From NCBI GenBank assembly GCA_973851085.1, contig OZ316776.1, positions 10,602,001-10,666,000 on the forward strand: a stretch of DNA of 64,000 nucleotides, given 5' to 3'. Origin of the DNA: Ptychomitrium polyphyllum (taxonomy: Eukaryota). How positions within the stretch are numbered: position 1 is the first letter of the stretch; each line of letters starts with the position of its first letter. Positions 23,119 to 63,555 of the stretch are shown here, one piece after another. The notes beneath the pieces were generated by a model that worked only from the letters and a program-made list of their open reading frames with translations, was not told the origin of the DNA and did not search any database. Both the position numbers and the translations under genes were made by a program.

Positions 23119-23479
23119 TTACACGGAGCAGGGGGAGGGCTCATGTAGGAAGATAAGGCAGGAGGATGGTGGATTGAAGATTGGGGAGTGCAGGACTCTG
23201 GAGCGGCAGTAAAAGATTCTTTTACAGTTTTTCGTTGTTGTGGAAGGACGGCGCAGGCAATGGTGAGTTTTGTCTCAGGTTAGCGTAGTTCGACGCCCAT
23301 GGAATTGCGAGAGAATGTGTTGGATTAGTGGGGGATGGAAAGACAGGATTTGTAGCCTCACAGCAGTTTGTTTTATTCTGGTCTCTCGGAGGTGACGTTT
23401 GGAATGAGGACTTGGCTGTCAGACCGGCGCTTGTACTGGAGATGATTCGGGTCGCAGGTTGCGACTTAATTTGAGAGCG

Positions 23480-25728: not shown

Positions 25729-28700
25729 CTAAAAATTCAGCAATGCTGAAAGACCGTTCCAACCGAACATATGAGGCCTGTCAGCATGGTTTGGGGGAGC
25801 GAAATTGAGTGCGAACATCTCCTTGGGGGCAGATCCGGGATTGATAATGCCAACAATCCTGGCTACAAGTTCAGCACTGGCTTGGATATGGCCGAGGTTG
25901 TGAGGGTCCATCCACAACTTGTAGACCAGCTGGAGCTTCCTCTGTTTTCCGTCGAGAGGAACACCCCATCGAATGAAGAGGTCTTCCCTCTCCTCATTCG
26001 TCAACCTTCGCGACATCTGCCTAGCTAGAAGTTCTCGTTCTTTTTTCAAGCTTTTAGCGCTGCACAGTACAAGTTGTTGAGATAAGGCAGTTCAGTCCAC
26101 TTGGTAACATGAGAAAGGCAAGGACATCCACAGTCGAAGAACATCATATGCTACTCCCGAGAGTCTACTGCAGTAGAAATCGAAAAGTGATTTTCGTCAA
26201 AGTGTGATCGCGAGGTTAGAAAACCAACCTGTTTGAGATGCTCGGGCTAGCAGGTATTAGATGCTCCTGGATATTCGGGCTAGCTGTGTTTACGTTGCAT
26301 TGGTTAGCTTGAGCCTCGGCGTTGAAATTCTCCTGCAGCCAGGTTAAGCGGCGCAACTCCACTTCCATGTAAATACCATCAGAAGGATCTCCCTTGAATA
26401 GAAGATAAAACTGTGTTCTATGGATGATAGAAACATTGCATGTATCCCATAACTCAAAGATAAGTGCTCTTTGTTGCTCAAATTGACACTTCCAGCTGCC
26501 TGGTGATTGCACAGGCTCCAGAGCAAGCTCATCATCATTGAGATCATCCTCTCCTTCCTCCTCTTCATCGTTCCCGCCAGCCTCCAGTTCGAGCACCTGT
26601 TAAAATTATTGACAATCAGTAAGCGACCAAAGTGAATTCTACGAGAAAAGCAACCTGCTCCTTCGATCATACATGCAACACAAACGAACAAACCATTTCT
26701 AGAGCTAATTCAAAGAGATGTAATGAAAATAATTAGCATATTGAGATTCACAGTGAGCCCATACCTGACAGACAAGAAGCTGTTTCTGATATTGAAGCTT
26801 GGCCACACGCTCCTTCAAGTCCGTTACGTACGAACGGATGCTCTTTATATTGTCCTCAGCTGCGGTCTTAAACAAGTTCTGCATTTTTCGAATGTCTACT
26901 GAATTTGACCTCTTGTGCCCACCACCAGGGCTCTCCTTTGATTGACTTGTATTAACATCAGACTTTGCTGGCGATGCACCTTGCTTTTGGTGTCCATTCC
27001 CTCGAGATGTTGCATGCTCTCCTCCATTAGGAGGATTATTGTCACGCGGTGCTCGTGGGGGTGTATTCTCGTTGTTCTCATTATTAGCATATCTCAAACT
27101 CCTCCGCGTGGCAGGGGAGCACGGAGTATCGGCTGTGAGGCGCTGCCTAGCCATGCCTGCAGGGGTTAAGGGAACATTCTTCTTGCGAGCAGGAGTCCTG
27201 GGTGACTCTCCAGTCTGATCCTGAAACAACATAGATTATGACACGTCCATTTCAGTGGTCAAATCAATACATGAAACATAAAATGTCTTGCGAGCTGTGA
27301 CTTGAGGCCACTTCAATTGCATCTATAATCGCAGAAGTTCTTTAGGGAATGGGTGTTTTTTGAGAATGAGCAGTAAATGAAGAAGCCAACAAACTACTGC
27401 ATCGTCACAATACAAAGCTGTGCTACATGCTCTTTTACTTTTCACTATCTTGAGTTGAAGAGCAAAACGTACCTTTGGTGAGTTTGTTTCGTTGGCAAGA
27501 ATCATCTTGTCTAGGGATCTCTGAACACTCTCCAACTGCTCCTCCAAAGTTGCTATGGCCGCATCGGCGTCAGTTTTATCCTTTTCTCCCAATCTAGAGA
27601 GCTCTTGACGCAATGTTACATGGTTCATACTGATGGACTGGCGAAGAGTGGCTACATCTTCCTTGTTCTCTGAGCCCTTGAATTTTGAAGTTGTAGAACG
27701 AAGGCTGTGCATTGTATGTATCTCATCTTGCAGCTTCTTGACTGTAGAAGCAGCGTCATGATTCATGCCCGCTTGAGCTAACCTTAAACATTCGACTTCC
27801 TTCTGAAGAGCTTCAAGAGCTCGATTGGCATCCTCGCCCAACTCATCCTGGAGGTTTTCAAGCTTGCGAATCTCCTGTACCAGCATGACGGATGCAGCAG
27901 TGGATTGCCTGATGGACATGCTTGGTCCTTTCGGCCGGATCGTGCTAGGGGGAGTTTGCGGTTGCTGGTTTTGACCCTCCAATTTTCGGATGAGATAATC
28001 CCCTGAATCAGACCACCTTCTTCGGTTCGTGCTAATTGAGAGAGGAGTACGGGAGATAGGTTCCGGCCCAGGTGTTGATGGCTATTATGCACACCACGTG
28101 AACATTAGAAGGGTGGAACAGAAGATAGGTACAGTAGATCAGAAACAAGTAAGCACTTCACAGCTACTTCAATACTCAGTGGTTTAAAATGTAACCGGGG
28201 TCTTACAGGTCTCTTTGCAGCCTCGTCCGCAAGTCTCTTTGCTGCCTCTTCTGCTAATCTTTTAGCGGCTTCTTCTGCCTCAAGTTTCCTGCTGACCTCG
28301 TCAAGCCGAGCTTGTGCAGCATCACGCTGTACTTGGAGCTCCCTAAGTTCTTCCTCCATCTATGAAACTTCCAGGCTCAGTAATTTTCCTTAGCAAGGCA
28401 ACTTCTTTAATGATTTAAAGAACACTTCTCTACTACTCGAACCAGGACAGTATAAACGTACAAACCTTTTGAATCTGGAGGTCTTTAGCTTGGAGTAGTG
28501 CTTCCGATGACGCGGCTTCAGTTCCTAAATCGGGAACTTTCAGCTCAGCCTCCAGTCGGGCCACCTCTTTCTGTAATTGCCTCACCAGTACCTTGTCTGA
28601 CACAACCTGACAGAGTACAGCAAAACTCCAACAATTTTGGAGCAGGGACCCAACATGAGGAACTGATCAATTCAAGCATATGTTGATTAATTTACTAATA

Positions 28701-31700
28701 CATTGAAAGCCAGAGATGGAATTGCAGAACAACCGAAACGCAGTGAAAGTTGGTAAGTTAATTCTGAAACCGAAACGTACATAGCGAATGCAACAGATTG
28801 GAATATGACTGCCGAGGGACCTTACCATGTTGATATGGGTGGTGTTCGTTACTTCCTTCGCCCTGGTAGCAAATGCAAGAGTGTTACGCGATTGCTCGAC
28901 ATGGCTATGGGCAGGGCTCATGGTGCAAATGATAGCAGTTCTTGCATTTCCTCCCAAAGAATGTTGTAAGATCCTTGTAAGCTTGGAGTCTCTGTATGGT
29001 ACATGTCCGTTTTTCTTGCTTCCTCCACTGAAAGCCAAATACATGAGTTCGACAACGAGTTATTAAGGACAGGACTAAGCAAGTACTGGCAATGGATTCT
29101 GGATAAAAATTTGAAATCATGTAAAATGTCGGTACCTAAGTTTGCGAATACAAGTGCTTAGAGTCAATAGACTGCGATTAATATGGGCTCCTTCCTTCAG
29201 CCTGGCGCCATCAGCTTGAGTTTGTGATGCTCGTTCACTTCCAGCCAGATCCACAAAATTCTGCGAAATAAACATGGCAGATGTTAGAACAGAGGGCTTG
29301 GTGAGTTACTGTTGAATATGCATGGATAAGATAATGATGCGCGTCTACACTACGGCATTGAAACCCATCCGGGAGGCAATCTGTAGTTCCAAACGAAGTG
29401 ATAGACAAGTCATTTACCAAACTCGCCACTAGAGAGGTTGCTGGAGTCCCTGGAGCAACTCCAGAAGGATGGCTCTCCACAGTCTGCACAGGCAAGAGGT
29501 ATGCTTATATCAACTGACTATATTCGTAAATACGGAATGCCAACTGACTGTATCCAAGTTCACAAAACACCATTACACTAGCAGCTGCAGATCAGACAAC
29601 CCCTGATTACCAACAAGTTGCCTAAAGCGGAGCAATATGAGAATCATTAGTTCATTTGTACTAGTAAACCAGAACTCACCAATCGAATGATCTGATGTGA
29701 CCTTGAGGATGTGTCATTTAGACTGGTCTCTCCGACTTGTCTTTGAGCTGCAGGAATACAAGGATAATCAGTGTAAAGTGAGTTGTGTATGAGCGCTATA
29801 TGTTACAATACAACTTCCGTCCTGTTCACATGGACTCGAAACAAATTCTACAGTGGCAGAAATATTTGTAGAGCTGAGCTCTTCGTACCTTCGCAAATCT
29901 TAACAACCTGCCGCAGATGTTCTACATTACGGACAACCTCCTCTTTCAACTTGTCCACAACAGTACCTTTCTGCGAATCAGAACAGTTCAATTAGAGGCA
30001 AATACATCGCCCTGGTCACAACAGGTAGAAGAATTGCAACGAAGAGTACGGAAGTACCCAGTAGAAGTATCCAAGAGAACCTCAGGTAAAATGAAACTAA
30101 ATGCCTCCCTACTTACCTCTTTGTCGTCAAGCAACCTAAGAGGTGCGTTATCAGAGGTAAGTAGATCTTTCACCACCTCGTTGTAAATTTCAAGTGCTGC
30201 TACTTTCAGTATAAATTCTCTGTCTGTGTTCTGTGACAAAGAGGAGAATCAGCCCATATGCACGAGGAATTCATCACCACTGAGCAAGTCTAAGTGTTCG
30301 TGAAACTCACATTCCACTGTTGTATGTGACAACCCTGGAGTGTGCTGATATAATTAAGGTGTCCAATCAGTATACAAAGCTGGACCAGGCAACACATGTA
30401 GAGGGAAGCGAAGCTCTAAAATCCCAAAATATGTCGAAGGGACGGAGTGTACAAACTATTCAACATAATTCGGAAATCCATTCTCATGCGATAATACAAA
30501 TTTCATGCAAGCAAACTGTAATGAAAGCAAGCCGACTCCACAAATACGCAAGAATGGAAGACCTACATGTTGGATGTACTCAAAAATATCTGCAATGGCG
30601 CTTTCAGTGACTCCCCTCATTGTGAAAGTCTTCCCACTGCTGGTTTGCCCATATGCAAAGATCGTAGCTGCTCGACCCAAATCAAGTCAGAACAATCACT
30701 TCAGAATGAACATGGAGGGTGCTAGAATCGCTATAGGAACAACCTGGTTCATTACACTTGCACTGTTACCATAAAACGTTTTCAGGTCATGGATGAAAGT
30801 CTTACAATTGAGACCCGTAAGGGCCGAGAGGGCCACGTCTTTGGCACCTTCTTCATAAACCCTCTGTGTTTGGCATTCAGGCCCGAATACACGATCTGCA
30901 AACAGCAGCTTAAACGTCAAATTCTATTCACCAACCTTTTTGCGACAAGACATCTCAGAATCTAATTACTCAGATTCCGAATGTGGCCAGGTCTCAGGGC
31001 GTCCTCTAGGAGCTAAATTGCACAAAAGATAGATCTCAAGCGCATATATTCTCCCGGCAACTCGTGCTAAACAAGCACTTCCCCTCAGCCACTTCATGGA
31101 TCCCATTCTACAACGTCTATAATGGTCATCTAGAGGCCTAGTTGTAGGACCTTCAATAACATGACTCAATTGAGCTTCGGTTCAATCTCTAACCAAAAGA
31201 GATACATACTAAGCAGGATCGTTGTGAGCAAACAAGTTGAATACTGCACAGAATAGGTATAAATTCTGGAAGTTCATAAAGGCGAGTAGGTATCCATCAG
31301 AGCAAACTCTTCAATCCGAAAGTAATACCCAAGTATCTAACTTCCATACCCAAAGGAGACTGGAGTTTCCTACTAAGTAGGAAGATAAACGAACTGACAC
31401 CAACTCTCAAATCACAAAACTTGAAGAAAGTAATGTCCAAACGTACGGGAGACTCAAATTGAAAAATAACAGAGAGTGAAAATCACCTAGCGTATACGTA
31501 GCAGGAAATGGCGAACGTTCCGGTAGTGCATGTTTGTACGCTATCGTATTCTCATTGCTGCACACCCAGTCTGAAACGTCGGAGCGAGCCACCTCCTTCG
31601 TACTAAGAGGCCGAACTCGCACCGTGACATAGATCTTTTCCTCCCCGCTCCTAATCCGAGCAAATTGCGCCCCGCCACTCCTCTCCATGGCCACAGTCAT
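25729..31700 (-). CDS. NACK: Kinesin-7, NACK1/HINKEL-like (N-terminal motor, coiled-coil stalk, C-terminal DUF3490), multi-exon
   Basis: '[10 protein letters not shown]', P-loop '[10 protein letters not shown]', switch I 'NDTSSRSH' (about 29700), switch II 'DLAGSE' (about 29240), '[23 protein letters not shown]', '[37 protein letters not shown]', '[32 protein letters not shown]', 'KEMFALNF'. Confidence 0.92.
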
Positions 31701-34700
31701 GGCTGTAGAAGCAAGAACACCTCCTAGGCCTCCTCTCCTTCAGCCCCGCCCTCCCTCCTGCCCCGTCCTCTCGCACGCACACAGGGCGGAGGGTTCAAGG
31801 CTCCCAGATATCCTTGTCCGCACATTCACTCAAACTCCAAACCCCAAACACGCAAACTCGGGTGAACACTCTTCCATCCAAGCTCCGCTGTTCCCCCTCA
31901 CCAATGCGGGCGCCAATGAACTCACTCCTCAACTCCGCATCTCCTCAACCGCGCAACTCTTCAAGTGAACAATCGCTATCAACATTACAACAACTGGCTT
32001 CGAGCTAACTAACTCTCACTCCACAATCGATCCTCTAACGGTATGCAAACGGATCTCAAATTCTCTCCCACACACCAACACAACCGATACGGCACCAAAT
32101 GAAGCGAGGTTTGGATCCCGGGATTTCAGATTCCGGAGATTAAGTCGAAGGCAGGCACTGTGGGGTGAGGTGAGTGAAGATAAGAAGGAGAGGAGAGAAG
32201 GCAGCATTGTTGGCACGGAAGCGCCGCAACGGTCACAAGAGCTTGCAGAGACGACAGAGGTGAAGCAAACAACCCGGGGCTTCACCAGACCACCACTTCG
32301 ACACCCGACAGCGTCGTCCCCAACGGTCATGCAGGTGCGGAATCGGCCTCCTCTCTCGGGGCGCGACTGTTCTGCGTGGAATTCACGTTCTCACAAGCCG
32401 AAATGTGCTGGTGTTTGTGGTTGTGTGGGTTTTTGGAGTGGAACTTGGGGGTTTGTTGCCAGCGTGGACAGATTCGGGACGCGATTCTGGGGTGGAATGT
32501 GGGAGGTCTGGGATTGCGGAGTGTTTGAAGGGGGTGCTGGGTTCGACAGTTTGCGAGGCCCGGTTAAATTTAGGTTCGGTTCATCTAAGTATGGAGTTAG
32601 GTCCGACAGGCAGTGATTTACAGAACTGATTTGCGTTTTTGAAATGATTAGTTTAGTACAGTGTAGCCTCGTTAATAAACTACTGGTTTCTACAACCTCT
32701 AATTTAAAGTACAGTCTAACCTCGTTCATACAATATAATTTTTATGTCCTCAATTTTGTGTTTGTGTGATTGAGCGTTTTAGTTCAAACTTCTATCTACG
32801 GTGCAACTACAAACACACAATAATATGACATTTAAGACATCTATTTTGTTGTGTTAAAGAAATAATATGGATGTACTTCATCTAATGCCTATGATGTTTT
32901 GAAAAGAAAATAATGTTTTTTTGTCATATGTAAAGAAGAACTTATAGAAAATTATGGAAATTTGAAAAAATAATTTGAAAATATATTAAACACTATGAAA
33001 ACTTAATAATACAACATTTTTTGATATTTTCTAAACAAGTAATTATAAAGGAAAAATAATATCTTTGGTTTTGACTCCTAACACAAAGACTTTAATTAAT
33101 AAAAAATTTCTTTAATAAATAAAAATTATTAAGCATGAAATTGTATTTTTATTTTTTAAAATTATTACTTCATTGATATGGTTTTTGGTAGTGGTTATAG
33201 GAATGTTTTGCCAATAATTATTTAGAAATAATATAATATGATCTTATTCACGTAAAGGTAATTAATGATATTAGTTATTTGGAAAAAAAATGAATTTTTA
33301 ATAATTCATGGATAGTTAGTTATTTAATTATAAATAATAATTAATAATTATTATTGATTGTATGGCATCATGTTAATCATAGATATAAAACTTTTGATGT
33401 CTAAATATTAGTAAAAATTAAGTAAGTGTTTGATTTCTAATGGCTTTTATTTTGTTAAATTCAAATTAAGTTAAATATAATTCAAATCAATCTTTATAAT
33501 GCAATCTTTAATATTTGAACATTTTCCATGCAACAAAATAATCTTTAAAGTGCAAAATTTATTTTTGATACCACAAATTATAATCTAAGCTTTTCAACAT
33601 AACACTTAATTATATGACAACCTCAACTATACAATACATTTTTGCACGACCAATTTACCTAGTTCAAAACTCTTTCATATGATACAACTATGACACACTA
33701 TAATACCACAATCAAACTCCCTCATTTGCCATATGATAAAGGTAATTAATGCTTAATGGAAATGAACTTCATTTAAAATGATAATTACTTGAAAAAAATA
33801 TGATTCTTCATTCATTCACAACTGAAAATCTTATGAAAACTTCCAATGTCTAAGGTTAAAAAATGGTGGCTAGAGTTTGTGTGGGAACTAGGGTTGATTA
33901 CCATTAATAAGCTTAGTATTGCAAATCCTAGTAAACATAAAATATATTCTTAAGATTTTATAACCATTGTAATATGTTTTTATACTTATTTTGGTCAAAA
34001 TTTGAAAACCTCAATAAAATAATACCAAATATCTTAAATATAATAAAATAAAAATACAACATTTCAATTATACAATAATTTTCTTATTTCCCAACTTTGT
34101 CATATAAAAGAGGAATAAGAATATTTACTATATTCTTATATTAAAATATTATATCTATAACAAATTCTTAATATATTCTTTAAAATTCAATTAAGTTCAA
34201 GAAATAAAGGAAAAAAATAATCAAAGTTTTGTTGTACCAAAGTTACATTGCAGGTTCGTCACAATTTCCAACTAGTATTCTATGCATCAACTAATCACAA
34301 ATTAACACATGGCACTACTCGATTTAAAGAAACAGCTATGCAACTACACTATTCTCTCAGGGGTTTCAAATCCTGTCTCATAGTTTTCAGGAAGTTGTCT
34401 TCTTACTTATGTTACAACATCCCCGTTTAAGAGAGTCTTACAGGACCAATGTCGATTTGTGAATTGCTTCTGCATGTTGCACCACACCTCCACCACAAAC
34501 CCCTCTTCAGTTGATCCAAGTCAGACGAGGGTCCAAGAAAGCGTCCAAACAGCTCAGATAAAGCGAAACGAGAAAGGATTCTGCATGGACACCGCGAAAC
34601 CCAAGCACCGAGACACCCAACTCCCGACTTCGAACCGCAAGACACGACTTCTCAACACTTAACAAGCCGGGCCGTCGGCGCTCTTAGTGGTTCCCAAGGA

Positions 34701-35029: not shown

Positions 35030-38000
35030 ATGGCGGGCTATGGCGATGGCTATGATGCCACCTTCCGGGACCTGGAGCTTCTCATGGATCGCAACGTCCA
35101 CCGCGCCTTCGCTGGATCTTCATTGCATGCGCCGGTGGCTTCTTCTTCTCTGGCGAATTGTGCTACATTCGGGGAAGAGCGCGTCGTGTTGGAAGGCGAG
35201 GACGCCCGCGAGGACCACGACGATGTAGCAGGTGTGGTTTCTTTTTATGTTTTTTCTATGGAATGATTGGCGTGCGTTGAGGATTGTTTTTCGTATTGCA
35301 GAGGTTTGGAGCGCTGTGAGCTTTGGGAGTTTTGTTGTTGAGAAGAGGTGATGTGTGTGTGAGGAGCGCTTGAGCGGTCGTTGGCGTGGTTGATGTTTTT
35401 GTTCTGTTGGATTGTTACGGGTTTGCGTACTTTCTATTTCGTTGGCATTGCCGAGATCTTTTGAGGCTTTGTTCGTGGTTTTGTCCTAGATTTTGATCTT
35501 CTTTTGCGATGTTTTGCCTTGTAGAGGGAGTTTTAGCTTGCTAGAGTGGTGTTTAGTTTTCTTTAGCGATAAAGTGAAACTAGAAATGCTTTATTCGTGC
35601 TGAAGCTGGATGTTAATCAGTTTATTGTCTACCGGTATTGTGCATAAAGGAGCTTGTGGTTATTATGATACAGAAAAATTCTTACATATTTTGTCAACTG
35701 ACCGTTTTCTTAGTTATGCACATGAGCAGAGCAGCTTCCAATTTGTGAGGCTATAGTTCTAGCAAATTTTAGATAATAATGATGCGATTCCGTTGTCGTG
35801 TAAGGATTACATTGTGAACGTTTTATGAGGATTCAGTTTCACGTGGAGAACTACACTCCTGAGTCGTGAATGAGGATATGAGCTGGAAGCTGTCATGAGG
35901 TTTCGTACAGATGGCAGTGGCGTAATGTTTTGGTATTTGAATTGTGGAAATATTTCCTTAACAGAGTGTCCACTTATCTGTTGTAATTCCGGAAACAAGG
36001 ATTAGACTCGTAACCAGTTTGCATGTCTCATTTTCTTTTTAGTGTCATAGTTCAATGATGTCACTAATTCGAGCAATGGCTCTTCCTCATTTCTTAAACC
36101 GTAGCTGGAACTCACGATATTTTCAAATTGTACTTTTCATCTGGCCTTGCTTTGCAACCATTGTATACCTCACCTGTTTAGTAGCATTTGTTCATATTTT
36201 GCAAGCTTATTGCCGCTGCCTTTTTCTAACAATTTCTGAGGATTGTGACTGTAAACCTTGCTGCAGCGACTCTTGGCAATCCGCTATTTAAAGCTGCTTC
36301 CATCTCCCTTGCTCTTAACTCCGTATTCACTTCTGGCCTCGTTCTGACAAAGAACAATGGATTGACACAAGCGTCACAACACAGTGGATATGGTCCAGCC
36401 ATTTCAGGAGCAGCTCCTTCTCAAAAGAAGAGCTATAGCCCAGTGCCTTTGATGGCTTCTTCAAAGGTTCAGGTTAGTGAATTTAAATCCCAAAGTTGGA
36501 AGAAGGCTTATGTCCGGATTGTTGATTTCTTCTGGAATGTATCTGTTTTTATGCAATCAACCAAGGCTATATTGAGACTTGGGACTCGTTCGACACAGGT
36601 GGCTCTTGATATTCCTGTAGCAACTCCAGTCACCGTTTCAAAGAGATCAGCAAATTATGTGTCAGCTTTTCCAGAGTATGAAAGACTTCAGGGCCCTGAC
36701 TTGAAGGATCCTGCAAATGCCGCTGGTTTACGTAGGGCTTCAATAGTGTGGTTTAGGAATGACTTGCGAGTGCATGATAATGAAGCTCTGGTTTCAGCTA
36801 GTAGAGATTGTCTCTCTATTTTACCAGTATTCTGCTTCGATCCAAGAGACTATGGAAAATCATCTTTGGGTTTCGATAAAACCGGTCCTTATCGAGCAAA
36901 ATTTCTTCTGGAATGTATCTCGAACCTGCGATCAAGTTTGAGGAACAGAGGCTCTGATCTGATTGTCAGGATTGGGAAGCCAGAAGAAGTGCTTGTCGAC
37001 TTGGCAACGAGTGTGGGAGCCGAAGCTCTCTATGTCCATCAGGAAGTCACTTACGAAGAGCTTCAGGTACAGTAGTTTCGTTCTCAAGGACCATGAAAGC
37101 TGTGGAATGTGAAGGCGTGGGAGGTCTTGTGAGGACAGAGTTGAGTATTATTCAAGTAGCTCGCTGTCGGCTGGTTATTCAGCTGTAACTAGATGTGACG
37201 AGTTGGTAGGAAATGATGGTTGCTTTTATTGCAGGAAGGAGATTTTGTTGCAATTTCTAGCAACTCGTACAGACCTTGGTTGTCACATAAGGGTGTCGCT
37301 GTTAAAAGATCATGGAATGTCCTAAACAGAGGACCTTTCCAGGTTTGGGAATTAATCATTCTCCATTATTGTGTGCATGTGGCCCAAGTGTAGAAGGGGT
37401 GACACCTCATTACCTGGAAGTTCCCTACTTTGTGCTAGATCTCTGTAAAGTTTCATGCTTCGAGTGTAAGTTGGAGGATGCTTAAAGCACAGTTTGTAAA
37501 AGTTATCGGTGGCATTGAAGCCTTACTTTTAAAAAAATAGCATGGCAGTGCTGTTCAACCATGTAAATAATGTAGGGATTAACTTGATATCCACGTCAAT
37601 ATCATAAGAACTGGGATTGTACTTGAACTTTGTGTTAAACTCGGAGATGTTTTCAAGGCTGGGTAGGCTGGTTGCATTAGTCTAGGTGGCAGCGCTTAAC
37701 GCAGATAGTCTCTATTTGGACATCTTTCTTTGTGACTTGAGGAAGACGGGTTAAATACGAGGTATACATAATTTTGCAAAGTATGACCAGCGATCTCTTG
37801 CACATGGGAGGAGACAAAACTGAACCCTGTGGAGCCGTCAACTGGATATAGGTCATTGGCCTGTAGTCAATTACGCTATGATCATTTACAGCAACGATAT
37901 CGAGCGTTTTTCCTATGATGCATGCATTTTGGTTTATGGCTTATGTTAAAAGTGTGTTGTCTGTTCAGGCAGAGGAGAAAGTGGCCGCTGCTTTGCAAGA

Positions 38001-39687
38001 GGAAGGTGTTGAGACAAAATATTTTTGGGGCAGCACCCTATATCACCTCGAGGACCTACCTTTTAAGTTAGAGGACATGCCCTCCAATTACGGGGGATTC
38101 AGGGAGAAGGTCCAGAATTTAACTATCAGGGATACAATTGAAGCACCTGAACAGCTGAAGGGCCTCCCCGCACGTGGAAATGTCAAGTCTGGTTGCATTC
38201 CTTCGCTTCAGGACCTTGGCTTGAATCCTGCAGCTACTTTGCGACAGGTCCTTTGCACCATCTGACTTTTGATGTAGATGTGTCTAGGCAGCAGTGACGT
38301 CTTTAACTCTTGGTTGCCAATCTTTGCCATGTTTGGACTGCTAAGGCTTTATTTTTGCTTGAAAAATAAAATAAAATAACGTTCAACTGGGACAGAATAT
38401 TCACCCTATTTTGGAAAGTATCACTGGAGTGACGATTCTATTATATTAGTAGTTGCAACTCTTCATAGATAATCTTTCTGAATTGATTATGCTAGCTCGA
38501 GTCTAATTGTGACTCAGAGCTGTGTTTGGAAACGTTTTGCTTCTATGCTCAGTACTATTTGTCTAGCAGGAGGGCCAAACAGCGGGTGGAGTTGGACTAA
38601 TGGGAGGTGAAGAAGAAGCCTTAAAGAGATTGCAGGAGTTTGCTTTAGCTGTGCCGAGCCAAACAAATATATCCAAAGTGAGCAACAGTCATTCAGAGCC
38701 ACGTGGTGATAACTTATATGGTGCTAACTTCTCTTGCAAAATCTCTCCCTGGTTGGCCTTGGGCTGTCTCTCTCCACGTCGAATGTTTGAAGATCTGAAA
38801 AAGACTATCTCAAGGTTTGCTCCTTAGCCCAAGTGTTGCTACCCTCAAGTTCATTTAGTTTTGTTTTGTTTGTAAATAGACGTTTGATGACATGATCAAT
38901 TGGTGTGCTGCTCTACAATGTAAGGAATTCAATTCAGAAAAATCCTCTTGGAAAAGACTTCATTTGCTACATAGAAAATATCGTTATCTGATTTGTTATG
39001 AGCTGCTTTTGTATGGTTGCTATCAAGTTATCTCTTGTAATAATTCGTATTCTACTGTTTTTGTTGAACTACTATTTTCACTTTATCAGCTGAAATTCTA
39101 GCGATTATTTCTGCTATTGTAGCTCCGTCTCGTGCTTATTGAAGTCTTCCGTAATGACTCTGATGTATAATACGAACCATTGATGTACTAGGTTTTCTTG
39201 CTCTGTCAGGAAGCGCACTTGAGGTAGAATTGAATTGCAAATCTGACAGGTTTTTGATGAGTTCACAGTGCTGGAGAAATGTCGACGTTGGCTGTGAAAT
39301 CTACAGGAACTGGAAGTGAAGACAATGGCCTTAGTTGGCTTGGCTTTGAGTTGTTATGGCGGGATTTCTTCAGGTGCACCTTTCATGCTTTCAGTAGTCT
39401 GGCATTTTTTGTATCATTTTTACTCAATTCGTTTGTTAATAAGGTGTCCATCAACCTCAGTATTGACTGTTCGTATGTCCGTTGAATGATTGTGCGATTG
39501 TTGCATTTAACTCAATGCACAGCTGTGGGTTTCTGAGGTAAGTGTTTTGAGTATTCTAGTTGAACAAATTCTTACGTCCAAGCAATGCGTGGTTTTCAGG
39601 TTTATCACAAAGAAATATGGCACTGGAAAGAGGTTGTCAGAGGTTATCCCAGCTAAAGCTAGCACTCCGTCTCTTGTTGCGGCTTGA
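35030..39687 (+). CDS. PHR2: Photolyase/blue-light receptor PHR2 (cryptochrome/photolyase family, short C-terminus). Predicted exons 35030-35231, 36267-36472, 36566-37066, 37969-38247, 38570-38814, 39269-39373, 39600-39687
   Basis: 'DPANAAGLRRASIVWFRNDLRVHDNEAL', 'FDKTGPYRAKFL', 'FWGSTLYHLEDLPF', 'NLYGANFSCKISPWLALGCLSPR', 'WLGFELLWRDFFRFIT'. The first exon is inferred from a phase-1 compatible splice and is less certain. Confidence 0.9.
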
Positions 39688-41640
39688 AACAGCTTTTAAA
39701 TGGAACCTCCGACCTGAAATTTTTTGGGAACAAATTGCTATGTCAAAACATGGCGTAGGTGTAGTTTTCATACCCTTCAAGTCAATTTAGGAATCAGCCA
39801 GCTTGCTGTAGAAATCACCTAACCAGTGGGGTCTTGCTATCCGCTTCTTGTAATATGAGCATCGGTTGTGTAATCTAGTAGACTCAGGGAGTGTTGCAAG
39901 ACTGACATGATAATTACATGCAAGGTTTTGTATCTGAAATGTATACCAACTCACTCCATAATGGAATTAACAACCATTTCTGTTTATTTTCCTTAAACAA
40001 AATGTATACAATGAAACTCCCTTTTGCCAATTATTAGGCTCACATCTAATGAAGATACTACCAAAAGGGACAAGACCTATTCGGCCTGTTGGCTCTTGAT
40101 TTTGGTGACTAGAATATACATGCTTACAAAAATGGGGCATATACTTCCCAGAGACATTCTTGTTGCCAAATCAACAAACATGATAGATTTAAGTGATAGA
40201 TTTTGGAACCAATGGATCCCTATTTGATTTGGTTTTTCTATTAAGGAATTTTAAACATGGTGGTGATTATTGAATTTTTGAGAAGGTACATAAGTACATA
40301 AGAGTGGTAAAATTTTCTTTTCTTTTAAACATTGTCAATATTTCTTGTTTATTTTGTTACCTATAATAAGGTATTTTAGTAACCTACGATTTTAAAGTAC
40401 AAGTAAATAAGTATTATAAAAGTTTAAATAAGAAATTATCCTTCTAAAAGTGCATAGATTTAGATGCATATTGCAAGTTTATCATCTTTAAAACTCTTAA
40501 AAGGATTTATTGCTATAAATAATTTCAATATGTTAGGATTACATAACTTGGAGAGAATGATTGTGAAGTTTTATAATATTGATGGAGACATGTCCTACAA
40601 GTTGAGAAAGAAGATACAACTTTAGAGATCAAGATAAAGCACGTAATACCAATGCAATGTTCACATTAAACAGTGGAGGCATGAGTAATGTATTGAGACC
40701 TAAACCACCATTTAATGAAAGCTGGATACAGAATTGTTAAAAAATTTACCTGTGGTGCATTAGTTCCATGAAAAGGGGGGGGGGGGCATTTTTCACAAAA
40801 TGGATTTCAAGATATAATAGTTGTCTATAAACAGATGTCTTGTTTTGAAATGATCCAGGAATTTCTGAACCTTCTGATTGAGTTGTAGGACATGGAAGAA
40901 GATTGCAAATCCTGTCGGCTTTCTATGAGTTGGCATATCTGATTTTACGCTGCTCAAGTGCTGCTATTGGCACATAGGTCGAATTGTACAATGTTTCAGA
41001 GAAATCGTTGACATGGTTAATGTTTGCACAATTGTTGGAGTTGCAATACTCTTGTTGCTCTGCTATCTCAGCACTCTTCGTGGCCTGCAATCCCAGACCG
41101 TGGGGTAAGTATGCTACATGTATGGTTGTTTATCTCTTGAAAAGGTGCCAAGTGATGTCCATCTTCTTGTTCATTATTTCACCTTCATCATGTCTTTGCG
41201 ACATAGAGCATGTCTTGGAACATTGACCTCCAACACTCTTAGATATGAGTCCAACAGTTCTCGTCTCTTTTGAGTGTGCATGTTCTCTTTCAAACCAGGA
41301 GACTAGTATAATGGAAACGTTTAAAAGAGAATGAAAAAGAAACTAAACTTTATGCATGAATGGGATTTGGCATCCAGCGTAATCTAAGCAAGATGAGCAC
41401 GCTGTTTGTTTTTTACTTTTAACAAAGATGAGCTTATGTAATTTCAAATTATGTTTATACTCGAGCAATTGCGTTAAATATCAGGTGCAAATTGGACAAC
41501 TTAGTTGAAAAGAAAATATAGCCAAAAGCTCTATGCATTAATCAAAAATGCAAATAATGCACGTTCTAAACTCGAGGCAAAACTGGCCTAACAAACTGCT
41601 CCAACTAATAACTACTGTTCTGTACCACTTGTTGTGAACT

Positions 41641-44600
41641 TCACATGCTCTTGTTCTGTACCACTTGGTTGATTTTATCCGCCAGGTCATCCCAATTGAT
41701 AGGCTTTGTTAAATAGCCCGTTAGACCCATTGCCACAAGACTCTCCTTTCCCTGAGTCAAAACATCAGCAGTCAAGGCGAAGATTGGAATATCACCCACC
41801 CTACCTCCCAACGCACGAATTGCTTTGGTAGCAGTAAGACCATCCATAACAGGCATTTGGAGATCCATTAGAACCATGTCATACTGGCCAGCTTGGATCT
41901 TGTCCACTGCCAGCTGCCCATTAACCACCAACTCAACCTGCATACACAAAATAGACATGAGGGATAAATTAAGATGAATTGAATTAAAGAGAGGCGGTTC
42001 TATCCTGTGTGCAAAAACATTATAGAGCACTCTTTTCAGGCTCCTTATGAAAAAATATCCAAGATGTCGTTTGAGTACAATTTTAGATTCAAGCACATAC
42101 AGAATGAAAGGCACCGTATGTCATAATCTAGGAAATGGAAGAAGTTGGCAAATGGGCACATCTGAAACAACTTGTACTTATGTTTTTATGGCAACAATAA
42201 TAATTCACTTCTTTAAAGCAGCAGGGTACTCTAACTATTTAATAATAACATATCATGGATACAAGTCACTGCTAGTCAACATCATGCAACCAACTAATTG
42301 ACCATAAACATGCTGATCAATCACATAATTAAATTTCAACAGGGCAAGGTTTACGATACCTCATGGCCATAATGCTTGAGCATTTTCCTGATAAGAAGCT
42401 GGTTCACCTTGTTATCTTCAGCAACCAAAACTCGAAGAGTTCTTCCTTTGGTCTTCAATTGTGCTTCTTTCTTATGCTCTTCAGGTGAAGGGATAAGATC
42501 CAACTCTGTACAAGGATTAAATGCTGGTCTTAGTGGCACACAAAATACAAATGTACTTCCTATCCCAGTTTCACTTTCAACCCAGATCCTCCCTCCCATA
42601 GCTTCCACTACCCCTTTGCAGATAGCAAGCCCCAAACCCGTTCCCCCAAACTTCCTTGTAGTGCTACTGTCCGCTTGAGAGAAAGACTGAAACAGTCGCC
42701 CTTGCTGCTCCTTTGTAAGCCCTATTCCCGTGTCTGTAACTCGAACTTCAAACCACGCGGGTAATTCTAAAAACGTTTCTTCTAATTCTTGTTCGTTCTC
42801 CATATTTACAGAGCCTTCGCCATCCTCTCCCATTGTGTCTAAATGGTACTCAAAATCTGCAGAATCGTGTCTTCTATCTATCAGAACATTGGAAGGTTGG
42901 TCCTGGGCTCGTATAGCTAGCTTCCCTAAAACCGTGTCAGGTTCTTTAGAACGTCGTGAAGACTCAGATTGCACGCTCTGCACCTTGTCATCTTCTACAG
43001 GAACCTGCAAATCCTCCAGATTTCAATATCAAAATTGTAGACCAGGAAGAACAAGCATTTATATTTATTCAAAGGCTTCAAAGAAGGTCTGACCTTAATA
43101 TTATAAGATAACAACCAGCCGTTTTATTATTCAATCTCTAATTTGTTAAATTAATCTTCATTTAAAACTTGGAGGAAACATGAAGTGATTTTATATTATC
43201 TCAGACTATTACGCACCTCGTTAGTGAGAACACAGCTATTATCTGCCATATCTGCACCCTCCAAGCCTGGTGGTCGATTAATTTCATCTACACGGGTCCA
43301 TGTAATAGTTATACCGCCGCGCTCGGTAAACTTGATGGCATTGCTGAGCAAGTTTGTGAGTACCTGGGAGCAAATAAGGCATACCACCATCAATGATGCT
43401 GAAACCAACTTCCGACTACACAGAATAACAGAACTTTAGTCTTGTTACGGAAAAGAAGCTTGTCATCAAATTTACCAAGATTAAAACTTAATAATAAATA
43501 TTGCATACCTGCCGGAGTCGATTAGGATCGCCTCTCACTACCATCTCGTCTGCAGGTGGCTTAGATACTATGAGTCGTAACTTCTTCTCTTGTAATTTCC
43601 CTTGAAACAAGGCCTTTACCTGTCACATCAGCCACACCAAGGAGTCTGAAAACCTTGACATTAAACACATGTCTACAGGGAATACGCAGGTATAATCAAT
43701 TATATACGTAAAGAATCAAATTCAATCTATTCCAGAGAACTTATGATCTCACCTGGTCAAGAAGCTCTCCAATGTGGAAGTCTACTATCTCTAGAGCCAT
43801 TTGACCTGACTGGATTTTGGAGAAATCAAGGATTTCATTCAAAACTTGCATAAGACTCTCAGCAGATACTTGCATGACCTTGACATAGGCCCCTTGTTCA
43901 GGGGTCAGAGATGTCAATAGGAGTAGGTCTAGCATTCCCAGTACACCTGTGGACAAGGGAAACAATGATCCTTTTAGCAGACGAATGATACCTGGAAATA
44001 GTTTAAATTATTTGAATTAATGAGGTTCTCACAGCTGCAAATTTACAATACAATCTAAGAATGTTGGCGAGAATTATTACCAGTCATTGGAGTCCGAAGC
44101 TCATGGCTCATCATAGCTAGAAACTGTGACTTGGCAACATTAGCTTGCTCAATTGCATCATGGGCATCCTTCTCAGTGGTTACATCATCAAATAGCCATA
44201 CACGGCCAAGGGTTGACATAGAGGTAATGGGGTATGACCGCACTTTTAAGACACTTCGCGGGTCCTTGAGCTCCCATGTCCACTCATGACACTGATCCGG
44301 GTGATTTACCAAGGAGTTGAAACACCTGTCAACACAATAGTTAATGAAGATTAGAATAGGAAAACTTTGTGCAACAAGATCAATTTTAGCCGTGTAGCAG
44401 CAATTTGAATCTGGTACTGAAAATAGTGAAAGAGATTACCGGTACGTGCTGCCTCGGTCTTTGCACCGATCAGCCAGTCTTCTAATACCACCTGCTACTT
44501 GCACTGGATCTACTTCACCTGCATTCAGTAGACCCAGTACCTTGGCTGCTGCTTCGTTGACCAGGCAGGGTGCCCTCTTATCGTCCACAAATACCACTGC

Positions 44601-46698
44601 CTGTTTGTAGAATTATTGTGTGTCAAACACATCAAAGATCTTGACATATTAGATGCAAATTAATCACAAGAGACCATGATTGATTGGCATCATTATCTCC
44701 AAGAAAAGAGAATTCTTTAATAAAAAACATTAAACATGATAGGACAAATTCCAGTCACTATTTAGGCGTAAATCTTGTTGGATTTAAAATTCAAAGTGTC
44801 TCCCAAAGCGGATCAGATTAACTGCCTATAAAATTGCTTAGAAGCAAATTTATAGTTAACCAATACCAGCAGAATACGGCTGAAATATATGATCCTGTTG
44901 TTAAACTACATAACTACAAAATAGAATACAAATGTTGAAACAGGGTTACCTGTGGCATTCTTTTCATAATAGTGTCAAACCTGCGCCCCATCCTGTCACA
45001 ACATCGAGCTCGGACACGGTTCGCAAGTAAAAGCGGGAATGTGTGACCAGCATCTGACATCACGTCCTCAGCCACATCTGGTACCTTTGCAGGGTCCAAC
45101 CACATTGCAAAGCACATGCCCTCGTAATTGCTGTTTGCAAGCATAACACAAAGAATATGCTGATCAAGTCAGTCCTCATCAAAGGAGGCGCAAAAAGCCG
45201 AAAGGGCAAGTACCTTTCTCTAGAGAATGAGAATGAGAATGAGAGAAATACCACTAAATTCTCTTATTCAGTAGCAGTGTTTAAATTTACCTAGAGAATG
45301 AGAGAATTTACTGGTAGAGCACTTACTCTTCAGCACTAAATTTTGTCGCTAAATACCGTTTTGGTCGAGACCCCAACGCAGCAGTGATCACGCTCGGCAG
45401 CAACAATCCCTGTGTGTCAACAACCTACCATGCCCATCCAGACTACGTTTCATTATTCACTGGACAAGGTTCAGATAAAAGTAAGATACTCAATTGTCTT
45501 GTCAGACTGCGTGCACTCTCAAAGCCCAAAACAATCTGCAAGGAAAAGGAGATAGTGTTCACAGCCCGAATTATATCAAAAAAATCCAAAGTCATTTAGG
45601 ATCATGTAAACCTCATAATAAAGTCTAGTGATTTACTATTACTAGTAGAACTCCAGTGAATAACCCGAAAATAAATGTTCTGAGTAACACTCTCTGTTTA
45701 GGTAGGGTAAAAAGAGGAAATTAAGAACATAGAATTAGGAGGCTAATGTTAAAAGGGAACTATAATCACACGGACGAAACAGACTGAAAAAAAACCACAA
45801 ATAGTCTACTAGGTTAAACAAAATTCCAAGAAAATCCAATGTGAAAAGGCTTTCTTCAGGGTTGATATGATTACGGAAATAAGAAAGAAAAAGAAAAAAC
45901 AAATTCAAACAGAAAGTATCATACCAACAAGCCTCTGAATATCTTAAGCATTGCTGTGCCTTTCGAACAAAGGATACCCTCCAAAAATTCCTCAAACGAC
46001 TCAAATTGTGGCATACAAACCTTATTTTATTACTTAGTAATAAAGAAAATAAACATACAAACACTCTATTGATATGAACAACGCACGGCAAGAAGAAAAC
46101 TAAGACCTACTCATGCAGCTTTGAAGAGTCTTGACTGCCGCACCTCGCAAGTATTCTTCGCCAACAACCCCTTGGACAGCCTTAACGACATATTGATCAA
46201 GTCCCTGGGCACGCAGAGGACGGTCTCAAGCAGCCCTTGTGACTGCAACAGCCCAGCAACGATCAGATCACACTGTAAACCAGTGGCTGTCATCTGTAGA
46301 ACAGCATGAGGCAAGTCCATAAACTCCTCCTTTTGAGCTCTTGTCGCTTGGGATCTAGGTGACGAAGTAGGGCTCATGCCCAGCACTGACGCTGCAACGC
46401 CACCCAATTGCTTAATACTCAAACCAGCGGGTTGAGAACTGTTGTTCCATGAGCTGGAAGAGCCCACCCCTGTTTCTACGCTCAGGATTGACCTAGCGGT
46501 ACCTGCTGCTGACCCATCCGCATGTGCAGGCTCAAAAGTTGATTTAGCGGGCAAATTGATGCTACTTGACTGGCTCTCATCACTGAGTTTGAGCTTCTTG
46601 TTCGGTGAACATGATGTATCGGCCATCTCAGGCTTGCGTATAGAGTTTATATTCGACATTACAGAGCTTGCACTATCACCACCTGAACTCGACTCCAT
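41641..46698 (-). CDS. Soluble hybrid sensor histidine kinase: Ser-rich N-terminus, possible GAF-like region, PAS, HisKA, HATPase_c, receiver. Predicted exons 46698-46144, 45409-45357, 45130-44950, 44600-44440, 44325-44081, 43946-43753, 43619-43509, 43363-43217, 43004-42360, 41937-41641
   Basis: PAS-like 'RFDTIMKRMPQAVVFVDD...VNEAAAKVLG...GRVWLFDDVT', H-box 'AKSQFLAMMSHELRTPMTGVLG', 'GDPNRLRQVLTNLLSNAIKFT', G1 'DTGIG', F 'FQSFSQAD', G2 'GGTGLGLAI', receiver 'VLVAEDN...VLMDLQMPVMDG...TKP'. No transmembrane segment seen. Confidence 0.9.
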
Positions 46699-46994
46699 TG
46701 TACTGAATGGCTTCTAGAAGCTTCAGCTAACTTATAACTGGATGGACTATCAGATTATGATCATATTTTAGAAAACACCAACCTACTCTCTTTTAGTACA
46801 AACTACGAGAAATACCGGACAGATCGGGTTGTCTATTGGAAGTCTTAATCTTAACCTTAAGAGTTGCTGGATAGCCTAAACTAAATCGTTGCATCCAACA
46901 AAGGGCTTCGGCATGAACTTCTAAATTTCCTAAAATCATCACTATCGTCAACCTTGTACCCAAAATCGTAAGCACCTAACAAAGGTCTCAAGTT

Positions 46995-48088
46995 TCAAAT
47001 GCATATGTCGCAGACGATGTGACGTCTCAAGGCCGGAATAACAACATCCGGCGCACTGAGCTGAGGCAAATGACCCTCTGCTTGCAGTATCTCCACAATT
47101 GTCGGACCCCCGAGAGAATGATGCAGGTACGCTGAAACGACGACAGGGACTGCCAGATCCTTGGTGCTTTGGAGAATATGGCAAGGGACTTGAACCTGAG
47201 ATAACCCCAATTGTGGTCAAAATGTGAACGCTGAGTGATAAGCATTCACTACAAAAATAAATGCAAAATATGCAAGAATTTGCAAGACCTAACCTTTCCA
47301 GATTAGAGTCAGTTACGAGCAATGCATGGAGGGGCAGGAAGGACCTGATGTAAAATACTGCGCAAATCACTTGTGAAAATGGTCTTGGCGACACTGAAGG
47401 CAATGTCTGGACGAATATTGAAAAGAGTTCTGCTAAATTCCTGAACTGCCATTGAGTCTATGTCCGCTCCAAGTGCGAGAGGTGCAAAACCCGATACCCA
47501 TGCCTTGAAATTGGATTGCATAGCATGGAACAGTTGGTTGAGATCCTCCTCATTCAGGCCCCCAAGATAATCAACGGTGTTGAGATACCTGCACAAGAAA
47601 AATCCTCTAATGATATAAACTCACACTGTTACAATCCTTATTCCTGCACACCCTCAACTCTCCCTAAGCCAGTACATAGATAAAGATTAGTGGAGATTAA
47701 TATCACATTACCTCGGAGAAGATGAGATCAGAACAATCTTGGAAAAGATGTGCGGCCGTTCAATCGAGGCTAAGCAGCCAATCATACCAGCAACCGAATG
47801 CCCAACGTAAATACACGAATCAATCTCCAGCTCATCTAGAATTGCAAGCAAGTCATCAACGTAACCATACAAGTTGGAGTATCGCGACGCACTAAAATAA
47901 TCTGGGTCCGTGGTGCCAGCGCCCATGCTGTCGAAGACAACGACCTTGAAGTCTTTGAGAAAGTGGGGTACGACATACTTCCAAACGGACTGATCGGTAC
48001 CAAAGCCATGGCCGAACACAACAACCTCCTTCCCATGTCCCTGTACCGTCACATTGTGAACCTCAAGAATTGTAGGAATCTGAGACAT
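46995..48088 (-). CDS. KAI2L: KAI2/D14-family (RsbQ-like) alpha/beta hydrolase, copy A. Exons 48088-47712, 47588-47345, 47195-46995
   Basis: '[10 protein letters not shown]', nucleophile 'GHSVAG', 'SSPRY', 'FAPLALGAD...[17 protein letters not shown]', catalytic Asp 'KDLAVP' and His 'EGHLPQLS'. Introns are GT-AG and in frame; stop TGA at 46997-46995. Confidence 0.93.
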
Positions 48089-62514: not shown

Positions 62515-63555
62515 ATGGCTCCTATCGCTGTGGGCGACAAGATTCCTAACGTCACGTTGAATTATCTGGACGATGACAACCAAGCGCAGAAGTTTAACAC
62601 GCACGAGGAGCTCAAGGGGAAGAAGGTCGTCCTGATTGCAGTTCCCGGCGCCTTCACTCCCACTTGCAGGTAGAGATCCGCAGGATGGCACTTTTATGTT
62701 TGTGGGGTTCGTGTCACACTTTACTGATTCGTGTTGTGAGATACTTTGCTTTTCCTCCGTTTTTTATATCATGGCACGAGTGGTTCCATATTTACCTTCT
62801 GTTCGGGACATGGTTGCTAAGGTTGAAAAAACTATTTCAGAATGTGAGATCAAAAACTTCGCAAATGATGCGAATCTGAACAACATCTGGGGGTTCTTTT
62901 TTTTTGTTGTTGAACGGGGTGTAGCTTAAGTTTTTCGCAGTTCTGTATTTCTTTGTTTGCGAAACAGGGGAACGGGTGACACTTCGATAAAATCAATCAA
63001 GTGCGTCGTTACCTATCGCTTGGTTATGAGCCGCTCTCTTATTCACTGTTTGTACTTCGGGGCTAACTTTTTGATTTTTTCTGGCAGCCAAAAGCACATT
63101 CCTAGCTTCATTGAGAATGCCGAGAAGATTAAGAGCAAGGGTGTGTCGGATCTCATCGTCATTTCAGGTCTGTTTATTTTGTTGTTGTAGTTCGCTCACC
63201 AACATGGGATTTTATTTAGTTCAACTTAGCCGTCAGAGTTTTCTATGTTAAATAAACATTCATTGGGAGACGTTAATCATGTGAGGTTATTTGTTGTGCA
63301 GTCAATGATCCGTATGTCATGAAGGCTTGGGAGCGATCTTATGAGGGTGCTGAACACCTCAAGTTTTTGGCTGACGGCTCGGCCGAATTTACCAAGGCGC
63401 TGGGCTTGGAGCTTGATATGACTGAGAAGGGTTTGGGCATTCGTTCTTACAGATACTCTCTCCTGGTTGATAACTTGGTTGTGAAGGTTGCCAATATTGA
63501 AGAGGGTGGGGCATTCGCTGTTAGTGGAGGCGATAATATCTTAAAGGCTCTGTAA
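62515..63555 (+). CDS. PRXII: Type II (PRDX5-like) peroxiredoxin, cytosolic type. Exons 62515-62669, 63088-63167, 63302-63555
   Basis: 'MAPIAVGDKIP', active site 'VPGAFTPTCSQKH', 'SVNDPYVMKAW', 'FLADGS', 'GLGIRSYRY'. No transit peptide. Confidence 0.92.

What the first reader, a model, noticed from the sequence alone, without database searches (positions are those of the whole stretch)
41641..48088. KAI2-like hydrolase tightly coupled to a PAS hybrid histidine kinase: candidate operon-like KAI2L-HK signalling module resembling bacterial rsbQ-rsbP
Seen in sequence: an intact KAI2/D14-family gene (Ser/Asp/His triad present) stops at 46995, and the ATG of a complete soluble PAS-HisKA-HATPase-REC kinase follows on the same strand only 296 nt later (46698). 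Other co-directional gene pairs in this window are separated by kilobases. Established: KAI2/D14 proteins are homologues of Bacillus RsbQ, which is co-transcribed with and required by the PAS-containing RsbP, and strigolactone responses in the moss Physcomitrium were reported to be MAX2-independent. Inference: this locus may co-express a butenolide-type receptor/hydrolase with a PAS sensor kinase, providing a two-component, F-box-independent output. I know of no description of such a pairing in plants but could not search the literature.
Basis: partly seen in the sequence, partly recalled or inferred. Interest (0 to 1): 0.9.

Follow-up and report, generated by a model that had tools for sequence, protein, structure and literature searches.

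The report
Plant KAI2 kept its bacterial kinase
In this moss the gene for the plant hormone receptor KAI2 sits directly in front of a sensor-kinase gene, the same pair is adjacent in another moss, four liverworts and many bacteria, so plants likely took both genes from one bacterial operon and the kinase is likely an overlooked partner of KAI2.

Summary
Observation confirmed and extended. An intact eu-KAI2 gene (273 aa) ends 296 nt before an intact 877-aa hybrid histidine kinase whose input is GAF-like plus PAS, not PAS alone. The two genes carry consecutive locus tags in Ceratodon, two Marchantia species, Riccia sorocarpa and Calypogeia (both copies); no adjacency was seen in Sphagnum, Diphasiastrum or Spirogloea. 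A spliced contig from another moss-like plant holds both reading frames (a hint, not proof, of one transcript). In bacteria, 55 of the 80 best KAI2-like loci (38 of the top 39) have a homologue of this very sensor as the next gene (median gap 2 nt); conversely 8 of 8 strong sensor hits have the hydrolase upstream. Both trees place plants at the same spot and reject a cyanobacterial origin. Best reading: a bacterial hydrolase-sensor operon transferred as a unit and kept linked in bryophytes; binding and signalling are inferred only. This scan noted the bacterial form once before on other DNA; I found no paper on the plant pair.

The parts
46995..48088 (-). eu-KAI2 (clade A-E) alpha/beta-hydrolase gene, exons 48088-47712, 47588-47345, 47195-46995; 273 aa; S98/D220/H249
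46699..46994 (-). 296-nt spacer, 38% GC, four upstream ATGs (frames of 4-48 aa), no AATAAA; must hold either a shared leader or an overlapping 3' end / promoter
   Evidence: the equivalent spacer is 430 nt with five ATGs in contig L009
41641..46698 (-). hybrid histidine kinase gene, ten exons: 46698-46144, 45424-45327, 45130-44950, 44600-44440, 44325-44081, 43946-43753, 43619-43509, 43363-43217, 43004-42360, 41937-41641; 877 aa
46321..46698 (-). poorly conserved Ser-rich N-terminal extension of the kinase (about aa 1-126)
   Evidence: 16-53% identity to land-plant homologues against 61-88% for the next region
44970..46320 (-). GAF-like domain and linker helix (about aa 127-272, exons 1-3), homologous to the N-terminal domain of the bacterial partner proteins
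44168..44967 (-). family-specific PAS domain (about aa 273-385, exons 3-5)
42590..44141 (-). HisKA (phospho-His H406) and HATPase domains with an acidic insert
41641..42430 (-). receiver domain (phospho-acceptor D804), split by the last intron

Best explanation
The two genes are an intact KAI2 receptor gene and an intact GAF-PAS hybrid histidine kinase gene lying head to tail, and they likely descend from one bacterial operon that likely entered the streptophyte lineage as a unit and likely still works as a receptor-kinase pair. Shown: gene structures; adjacency in five other bryophyte species (by locus tags); the same order and strand in bacteria, where the sensor drives a kinase, a diguanylate cyclase or stands alone. 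Inferred steps, with my odds: joint transfer from a non-cyanobacterial bacterium (0.85); shared or overlapping transcription in bryophytes, as a read-through or dicistronic RNA or from one promoter (0.65); KAI2 binds or hydrolyses a small butenolide-like ligand, contacts the GAF-PAS region and changes autophosphorylation at H406, with transfer to D804 and on to the HPt/response-regulator relay, in parallel to the known MAX2-SMXL route (0.5), by analogy with RsbQ-RsbP.
For: Plants: consecutive tags or accessions in Ceratodon (two assemblies), Marchantia paleacea and Riccia sorocarpa, M. polymorpha (MpKAI2A = Mapoly0023s0137; kinase = MARPO_0023s0138, named 'protein MpKAI2A' in three later records) and both Calypogeia copies. 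Contig L009 holds an intron-free KAI2 frame and spliced kinase exons (7 of 9 junctions tested are spliced); L002 carries a decayed KAI2 sequence in the leader of a kinase frame (52.8 bits; best of 200 shuffles 28.1). Bacteria: 55 of 80 best KAI2-like GTDB loci, 38 of the top 39, have the sensor as next gene, same strand, median gap 2 nt; 8 of 8 new strong sensor hits found without the hydrolase have it upstream; the only plasmid hit of the plant sensor also has it. Four Leptospira loci have exactly the plant domain order. The plant-built profile does not hit ordinary PAS domains next to RsbQ-like genes. Hydrolase and sensor trees are congruent (Mantel rho 0.72 over 56 bacterial pairs). Plant KAI2 shares G159, F160, R185, I196, A222 with 96-100% of sensor-linked hydrolases and with 9-35% of the others. 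Direct RsbQ-PAS contact is shown for the Bacillus pair (PMC3183031, abstract and passages).
Against: No RNA of this organism was seen; an assembled contig across two genes does not show one transcript, and the kinase copy in L009 has a premature stop and a frameshift and keeps two introns. Adjacency was not seen in Sphagnum (kinase on 10G, KAI2 copies seen on 02G, 05G, 15G; none in 9.7 kb upstream in L012; kinase-only mRNA L001), Diphasiastrum (12G against 19G) or Spirogloea (scaffold 6 against 4, 7, 11), so linkage is dispensable and the algal state is unlinked in the one alga checked. No seed-plant kinase was among the 18 hits although seed plants keep KAI2 and its signature residues; no residue set specific to kinase-linked plant KAI2 was found. 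Marchantia and moss eu-KAI2 phenotypes are already explained through MAX2-SMXL. Deep tree branches have modest support (SH-aLRT 84-93, quick search), the donor is unresolved, and shared ancestry alone raises a Mantel correlation. Locus tags show order, not strand or distance. No control for general microsynteny of neighbouring genes could be run.
Confidence: 0.62

Rival explanations
1. Relic linkage: the pair came in together, but the proteins no longer work together. The genes stay adjacent because the kinase's promoter or leader lies inside or upstream of the KAI2 gene, so separation is costly.
For: The 296-nt gap leaves little room for a 3' end, promoter and leader; L002 keeps a decayed KAI2 sequence in front of an open kinase frame and L009 an intact KAI2 in front of a broken kinase, so each gene can survive without a working neighbour in cis; linkage is not seen in Sphagnum, Diphasiastrum, Spirogloea.
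Against: The GAF-PAS region is as conserved as the kinase core across land plants (61-88% for the GAF-like part), so it still has a ligand or partner; L002 and L009 could be complementary duplicates acting in trans; lineages without linkage still hold both genes.
Confidence: 0.26
2. One reading: the kinase is the missing MAX2-independent output of strigolactone perception in moss.
For: The output of clade JGM receptors is unexplained; a DDK-clade KAI2L gene lies 10.6 kb upstream in this window, and paralogues could bind the kinase in trans.
Against: The adjacent gene is eu-KAI2 (100/96 support with PpKAI2L-E; 504 against 357 bits for C/E against H structures), the MAX2-dependent clade; the pair is conserved in M. 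polymorpha, which lacks CCD8 (bioRxiv 10.1101/2020.11.17.387852, passage).
Confidence: 0.07
3. Independent acquisitions and chance or passive synteny.
For: Moss genomes keep local gene order (recalled); neighbouring-gene control not run; unlinked in the one alga checked.
Against: It needs the two genes to meet by chance in the same order as the bacterial operon, for a sensor family found in only about 1 in 100 sampled bacterial genomes and tied there to this hydrolase; adjacency spans mosses and both complex-thalloid and leafy liverworts.
Confidence: 0.05

Closest known systems
RsbQ-PAS bipartite sensing module (Bacillus subtilis RsbQ-RsbP; Nadezhdin, Brody and Price 2011, PMC3183031; seen: abstract, section 5, passages)
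   Same: RsbQ/KAI2-family hydrolase encoded directly upstream of a PAS-containing signalling protein; outputs include histidine kinase, hybrid kinase and diguanylate cyclase; intact triad.
   Different: [quoted passage not shown] The hydrolases are of the KAI2-signature subtype. The paper lists bacteria only; this pair is in a plant nuclear genome with introns.
eu-KAI2 / MAX2 / SMXL pathway (MpKAI2A; PpKAI2L-A to -E)
   Same: The hydrolase is a member of this receptor clade; the Marchantia orthologue in the pair is MpKAI2A itself.
   Different: No kinase partner or neighbour is mentioned in the passages read (the word 'kinase' does not occur in the MpKAI2A preprint).
PHK1/PHK2 PAS-histidine kinases of Physcomitrium (PMC6137987; seen: passages)
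   Same: Soluble hybrid kinases limited to seed-free streptophytes and close to bacterial kinases.
   Different: PHKs are PAS-PAS kinases on chromosomes 16 and 27; the two Physcomitrium homologues of this kinase lie on 30.3 and 26.0 Mb sequences (chromosomes 1 and 2 by recall) and have GAF-like plus one PAS below the Pfam cut-off. Not compared by sequence.
Horizontal origin of D14/KAI2 from proteobacterial RsbQ (as stated in bioRxiv 10.1101/2025.03.14.642314 and 10.1101/2023.12.05.570042; seen: passages)
   Same: Bacterial, non-plastid origin of KAI2.
   Different: Those texts treat a single-gene transfer; the word 'kinase' occurs in neither. Here the downstream partner gene came too.
E. coli DhaR(N) GAF-PAS regulator bound by enzyme subunits (PDB 4LRX/4LRY/4LRZ)
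   Same: Among the best fold matches (E about 1e-7); an enzyme docking on a GAF-PAS input is a precedent by analogy (mechanism recalled).
   Different: 11-12% identity, TM about 0.3 over the two-domain model; different enzyme and output; fold resemblance only.

Membership tests
eu-KAI2 (moss clade A-E) | Ser-His-Asp triad in a D14/KAI2 fold | tested here: met
   S98/D220/H249; Pfam Abhydrolase
eu-KAI2 (moss clade A-E) | Placement with PpKAI2L-C/D/E rather than the DDK clades | tested here: met
   22-row moss clade with PpKAI2L-E, 100/96; orthologue scores 504 bits with C/E, 357 with H. No named F/K or J/G/M sequence was in the tree.
eu-KAI2 (moss clade A-E) | Ligand binding and MAX2-dependent signalling | not testable with these tools
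   needs biochemistry and genetics
Hybrid histidine kinase | HisKA with phospho-His, HATPase boxes, receiver with phospho-Asp | tested here: met
   H406, N523, G1/F/G2, D761/D804/T835/K857
RsbQ-PAS module (Nadezhdin 2011) | RsbQ homologue encoded immediately upstream, same strand | tested here: met
RsbQ-PAS module (Nadezhdin 2011) | [quoted passage not shown] | tested here: not met
   an extension and a GAF-like domain precede the PAS; definition
RsbQ-PAS module (Nadezhdin 2011) | PAS belongs to the RsbP-PAS class | tested here: inconclusive
   the plant profile finds no hit (E < 0.01) in the N-terminal PAS proteins beside RsbQ-like genes in L077, L084, L088, which points to a different class; RsbP itself was not compared
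RsbQ-PAS module (Nadezhdin 2011) | Direct hydrolase-PAS contact | not testable with these tools
   needs a binding assay
PHK1/PHK2 PAS-histidine kinases | PAS-PAS-HisKA-HATPase-REC with two complete PAS domains | tested here: not met
   one weak PAS preceded by a GAF-like fold; definition
Nuclear polycistronic locus | Single full-length mRNA molecules carrying both open frames | tested here: inconclusive
   one assembled, mostly spliced contig with both frames in another plant (L009); no long reads, no RNA run for this organism

The most novel reading that the evidence does not exclude
The ancestral output of KAI2 is a histidine kinase: streptophytes acquired a complete bacterial receptor-kinase operon, bryophytes still transcribe it as one unit, and KAI2-ligand perception feeds directly into the His-Asp phosphorelay (shared with cytokinin signalling) alongside, and older than, the MAX2-SMXL route; seed plants lost the kinase.
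Probability: 0.4. Interest if true: 0.96.

Novelty: new variant of a known kind. Interest (0 to 1): 0.88.

Why it matters
KAI2 is the ancestor of the strigolactone receptor and its own ligand (KL) is unknown. A second, kinase-type partner would add a branch to a core plant hormone pathway, explain what KAI2 did before MAX2-SMXL, and give a direct biochemical read-out (phosphorylation, or c-di-GMP in the bacterial cyclase versions) for hunting KL. It would also be a rare case of a bacterial two-gene operon kept in order in plant nuclear genomes since the moss-liverwort split (over 400 million years, recalled). Practically, Mpkai2a alleles and MpKAI2A expression values may also touch the kinase, since later Marchantia records file it under the same name.

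Tried and rejected
No whole genome is held for the window, so paralogues and wider synteny were not searched. RNA: no RNA holder listed; the two runs are DNA-type contigs without joints. Complex prediction of the Ceratodon KAI2 with the kinase's residues 78-345: no verdict (score 0.00, alignments not used). First fold from 9 sequences was poor (pLDDT 54; search) and was replaced. VIA structure searches did not run, so no domain-wise Z-scores. KAI2-kinase fusion proteins: none among the 150 best representatives. Plastid (cyanobacterial) origin: rejected for both genes (p-AU 0.0068 sensor, 0.0041 hydrolase; quick trees). Alignment A7 carried kinase/cyclase tails, so one search returned mostly generic hits; only its two new full-length sensor hits were counted and 27 generic loci served as a lenient control (0 of 27 with a hydrolase; flanks only 1.5 kb, so upstream genes can be missed; the same limit applies to the four weak hits). 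A candidate extra exon at 45535-45490 was rejected because homologues skip it. Interface residues specific to linked plant KAI2: none found. Physcomitrium adjacency: unresolved; recalled gene ids gave no paper and the journal version was not held. Marchantia supplements (two papers) gave no annotation of the kinase. Literature: 10 searches showed no description of the plant pair; only the first 20-40 rows of the large result sets were seen, subscription papers and bioRxiv supplements are not covered.
Full report
1. Observation. The window is from a moss (the KAI2L protein is 83% identical to Ceratodon and Physcomitrium proteins). The KAI2L gene has three exons and encodes 273 aa with an intact triad. 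The kinase gene starts 296 nt after its stop; ten exons with GT-AG introns give 877 aa without internal stop and all catalytic motifs are present. The gap has four upstream ATGs and no AATAAA. Two DNA runs from one sample, probably the source, cover the stretch without listed differences.

2. What the proteins are. The hydrolase groups with moss eu-KAI2 (clade A-E; 100/96) and forms a subclade (100/100) with Ceratodon 6G206600 and a Physcomitrium protein (54 rows). That clade works with MAX2; the MAX2-independent strigolactone receptors are clade JGM (bioRxiv 10.1101/2020.11.24.395954, abstract and passages). The kinase's input region (about aa 127-385) is weakly PAS_7 in Pfam; a model of the Sphagnum homologue from 60 sequences has pLDDT 92.8 and matches tandem GAF/PAS structures; the atlas gives GAF + PAS clusters. 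The family was found in mosses, Sphagnum, liverworts, a lycophyte and Spirogloea; none of the 18 hits was named as a seed plant (candidates were capped).

3. Conservation in plants. Of ten named species or genera with the kinase, five show consecutive tags for KAI2 and kinase: Ceratodon (M758_6G206600/206500 and KC19_6G215700/215600), Marchantia polymorpha (Mapoly0023s0137 = MpKAI2A; MARPO_0023s0138), M. paleacea (Mapa_003792/003793), Riccia sorocarpa (R1sor_010806/010807) and Calypogeia fissa (two copies, CAM6093963/964 and CAM6094661/660). Three show no adjacency among the copies seen (Sphagnum, Diphasiastrum, Spirogloea). Two are undetermined (Physcomitrium, Riccia fluitans). Tags show order only. 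In three later M. polymorpha records the 941-aa kinase is itself named 'protein MpKAI2A'; I infer that the annotation merged both into one locus.

4. Transcript hints. The metagenome scan gave 18 loci. L009 (4,407 nt) has an intron-free KAI2 frame (84% to Ceratodon), a 430-nt gap and kinase exons; 7 of 9 junctions tested are spliced, the last two introns are kept, and the kinase has a premature stop and a frameshift. An assembled contig does not prove one molecule. L002 has an open kinase frame with a decayed KAI2 sequence in its leader (52.8 bits, best shuffle 28.1). The Sphagnum mRNA L001 and the other plant-like loci have no KAI2 in the DNA held.

5. The bacterial operon. The plant sensor's only hit among 72,556 plasmids is a sensor-cyclase with a KAI2-like gene directly upstream (314 bits); metagenome locus L016 has the same layout with a hybrid kinase; L017 and L018 (weak, PAS only) do not. 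A GTDB scan with a KAI2 alignment found 279 relatives; the best 80 were kept. A profile built only from nine plant-type sensors hits the next gene on the same strand in 55 of 80, and in 38 of the top 39; the median gap is 2 nt and 54 of 55 gaps are at most 50 nt. Outputs: 29 diguanylate cyclases, 14 histidine kinases (10 with receiver; four Leptospira loci match the plant layout exactly), 12 with none of these detected. The triad is intact in 56 of 57 linked hydrolases. Ordinary PAS proteins beside the remaining RsbQ-like genes are not hit (16 of the 25 negatives scanned with Pfam). Reverse test: in samples of 401, 301, 291 and 291 genomes, twelve new sensor loci were found; all 8 scoring at least 40 bits have the hydrolase directly upstream, none of the 4 weak ones, none of 27 generic kinase/cyclase loci (short flanks make the negatives lenient). 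The module is rare, about 1 in 100 genomes sampled. A search of 1.84 billion representatives gave 345 relatives, bacterial-type ones following the plant hits.

6. Origin. In both trees plants are one clade (99 and 100) that attaches between the proteobacterial pairs and the Leptospira/Cyanobacteria/Bacteroidota pairs (SH-aLRT 84-93 on the deep branches, quick searches, so the donor is open). A plant + cyanobacteria clade is rejected for both genes. Hydrolase and sensor distances track each other across 56 bacterial pairs (rho 0.72; kinship contributes). Plant KAI2 carries residues typical of sensor-linked hydrolases, but seed-plant KAI2 keeps them as well, so they do not mark a kinase interface.

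7. Mechanism. Shown: anatomy, conservation of order, bacterial operon. Inferred: joint transfer (0.85), shared or overlapping transcription (0.65), physical and functional coupling (0.5). By analogy with RsbQ-RsbP, where contact is shown and two models are proposed (PMC3183031), KAI2 would bind or cleave a small ligand, touch the GAF-PAS region, and switch phosphorylation H406 to D804 to HPt. Main rival: relic linkage through a shared promoter (0.26).

8. Novelty. The horizontal origin of KAI2 alone is in print (passages). Ten searches showed no account of the plant pair or of joint transfer; subscription journals and bioRxiv supplements were not covered. Papers seen: PMC6137987 passages; 10.1101/2020.11.24.395954 abstract, outline, passages; 10.1101/2020.11.17.387852 passages; PMC12993094 passages; 10.1101/2025.03.14.642314 and 10.1101/2023.12.05.570042 passages; PMC3183031 abstract, section 5, passages; PMC13190419 and PMC9729187 supplement look-ups only. 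Verdict: real, new variant of a known kind, interest 0.88.

Noticed in passing
window 59863-58680 (-): A second intact KAI2-like gene (271 aa, three exons) of the DDK side of the family, 10.6 kb upstream on the same strand.
   Followed up: partly
L003-L008: A second plant-type clade of this kinase (with P0190, P0244, P0245, P0247); in genomic-length contigs L004-L008 the frame has no introns and no KAI2 lies within the DNA held.
   Followed up: partly
L002:502-976 and L009:2444-3773: Complementary decay: one contig keeps the kinase with a KAI2 remnant, another keeps KAI2 with a broken kinase; both come from one data set but differ (69% identity), so they may be paralogues or two species.
   Followed up: partly
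L049, L066, L068, L071, L080, L083, L089, L092, L093, L098: In Bacteroidota (mostly Chitinophagaceae) the partner is a stand-alone GAF-PAS protein of about 280-300 aa with no output domain, which suggests the hydrolase-sensor pair is the functional core.
   Followed up: no
L016:1630-2460: The hydrolase in this metagenome locus has Ala in place of the catalytic Ser yet is still paired with the sensor kinase.
   Followed up: no
window 658-1722 and 6488-7498 (+): Tandem intron-free mitochondrial carrier genes.
   Followed up: no
window 36230-39700 (+), 25729-31739 (-), 23408-25275 (+), 63277-63555 (+): Neighbours: photolyase/cryptochrome-like gene, kinesin with DUF3490, a zinc-finger/NYN-like gene ending 454 nt from the kinesin stop, and a peroxiredoxin.
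   Followed up: no
L001:241-627: The Sphagnum kinase mRNA contig has a helicase-like fragment frame in its long leader instead of KAI2 (identity read by eye).
   Followed up: no
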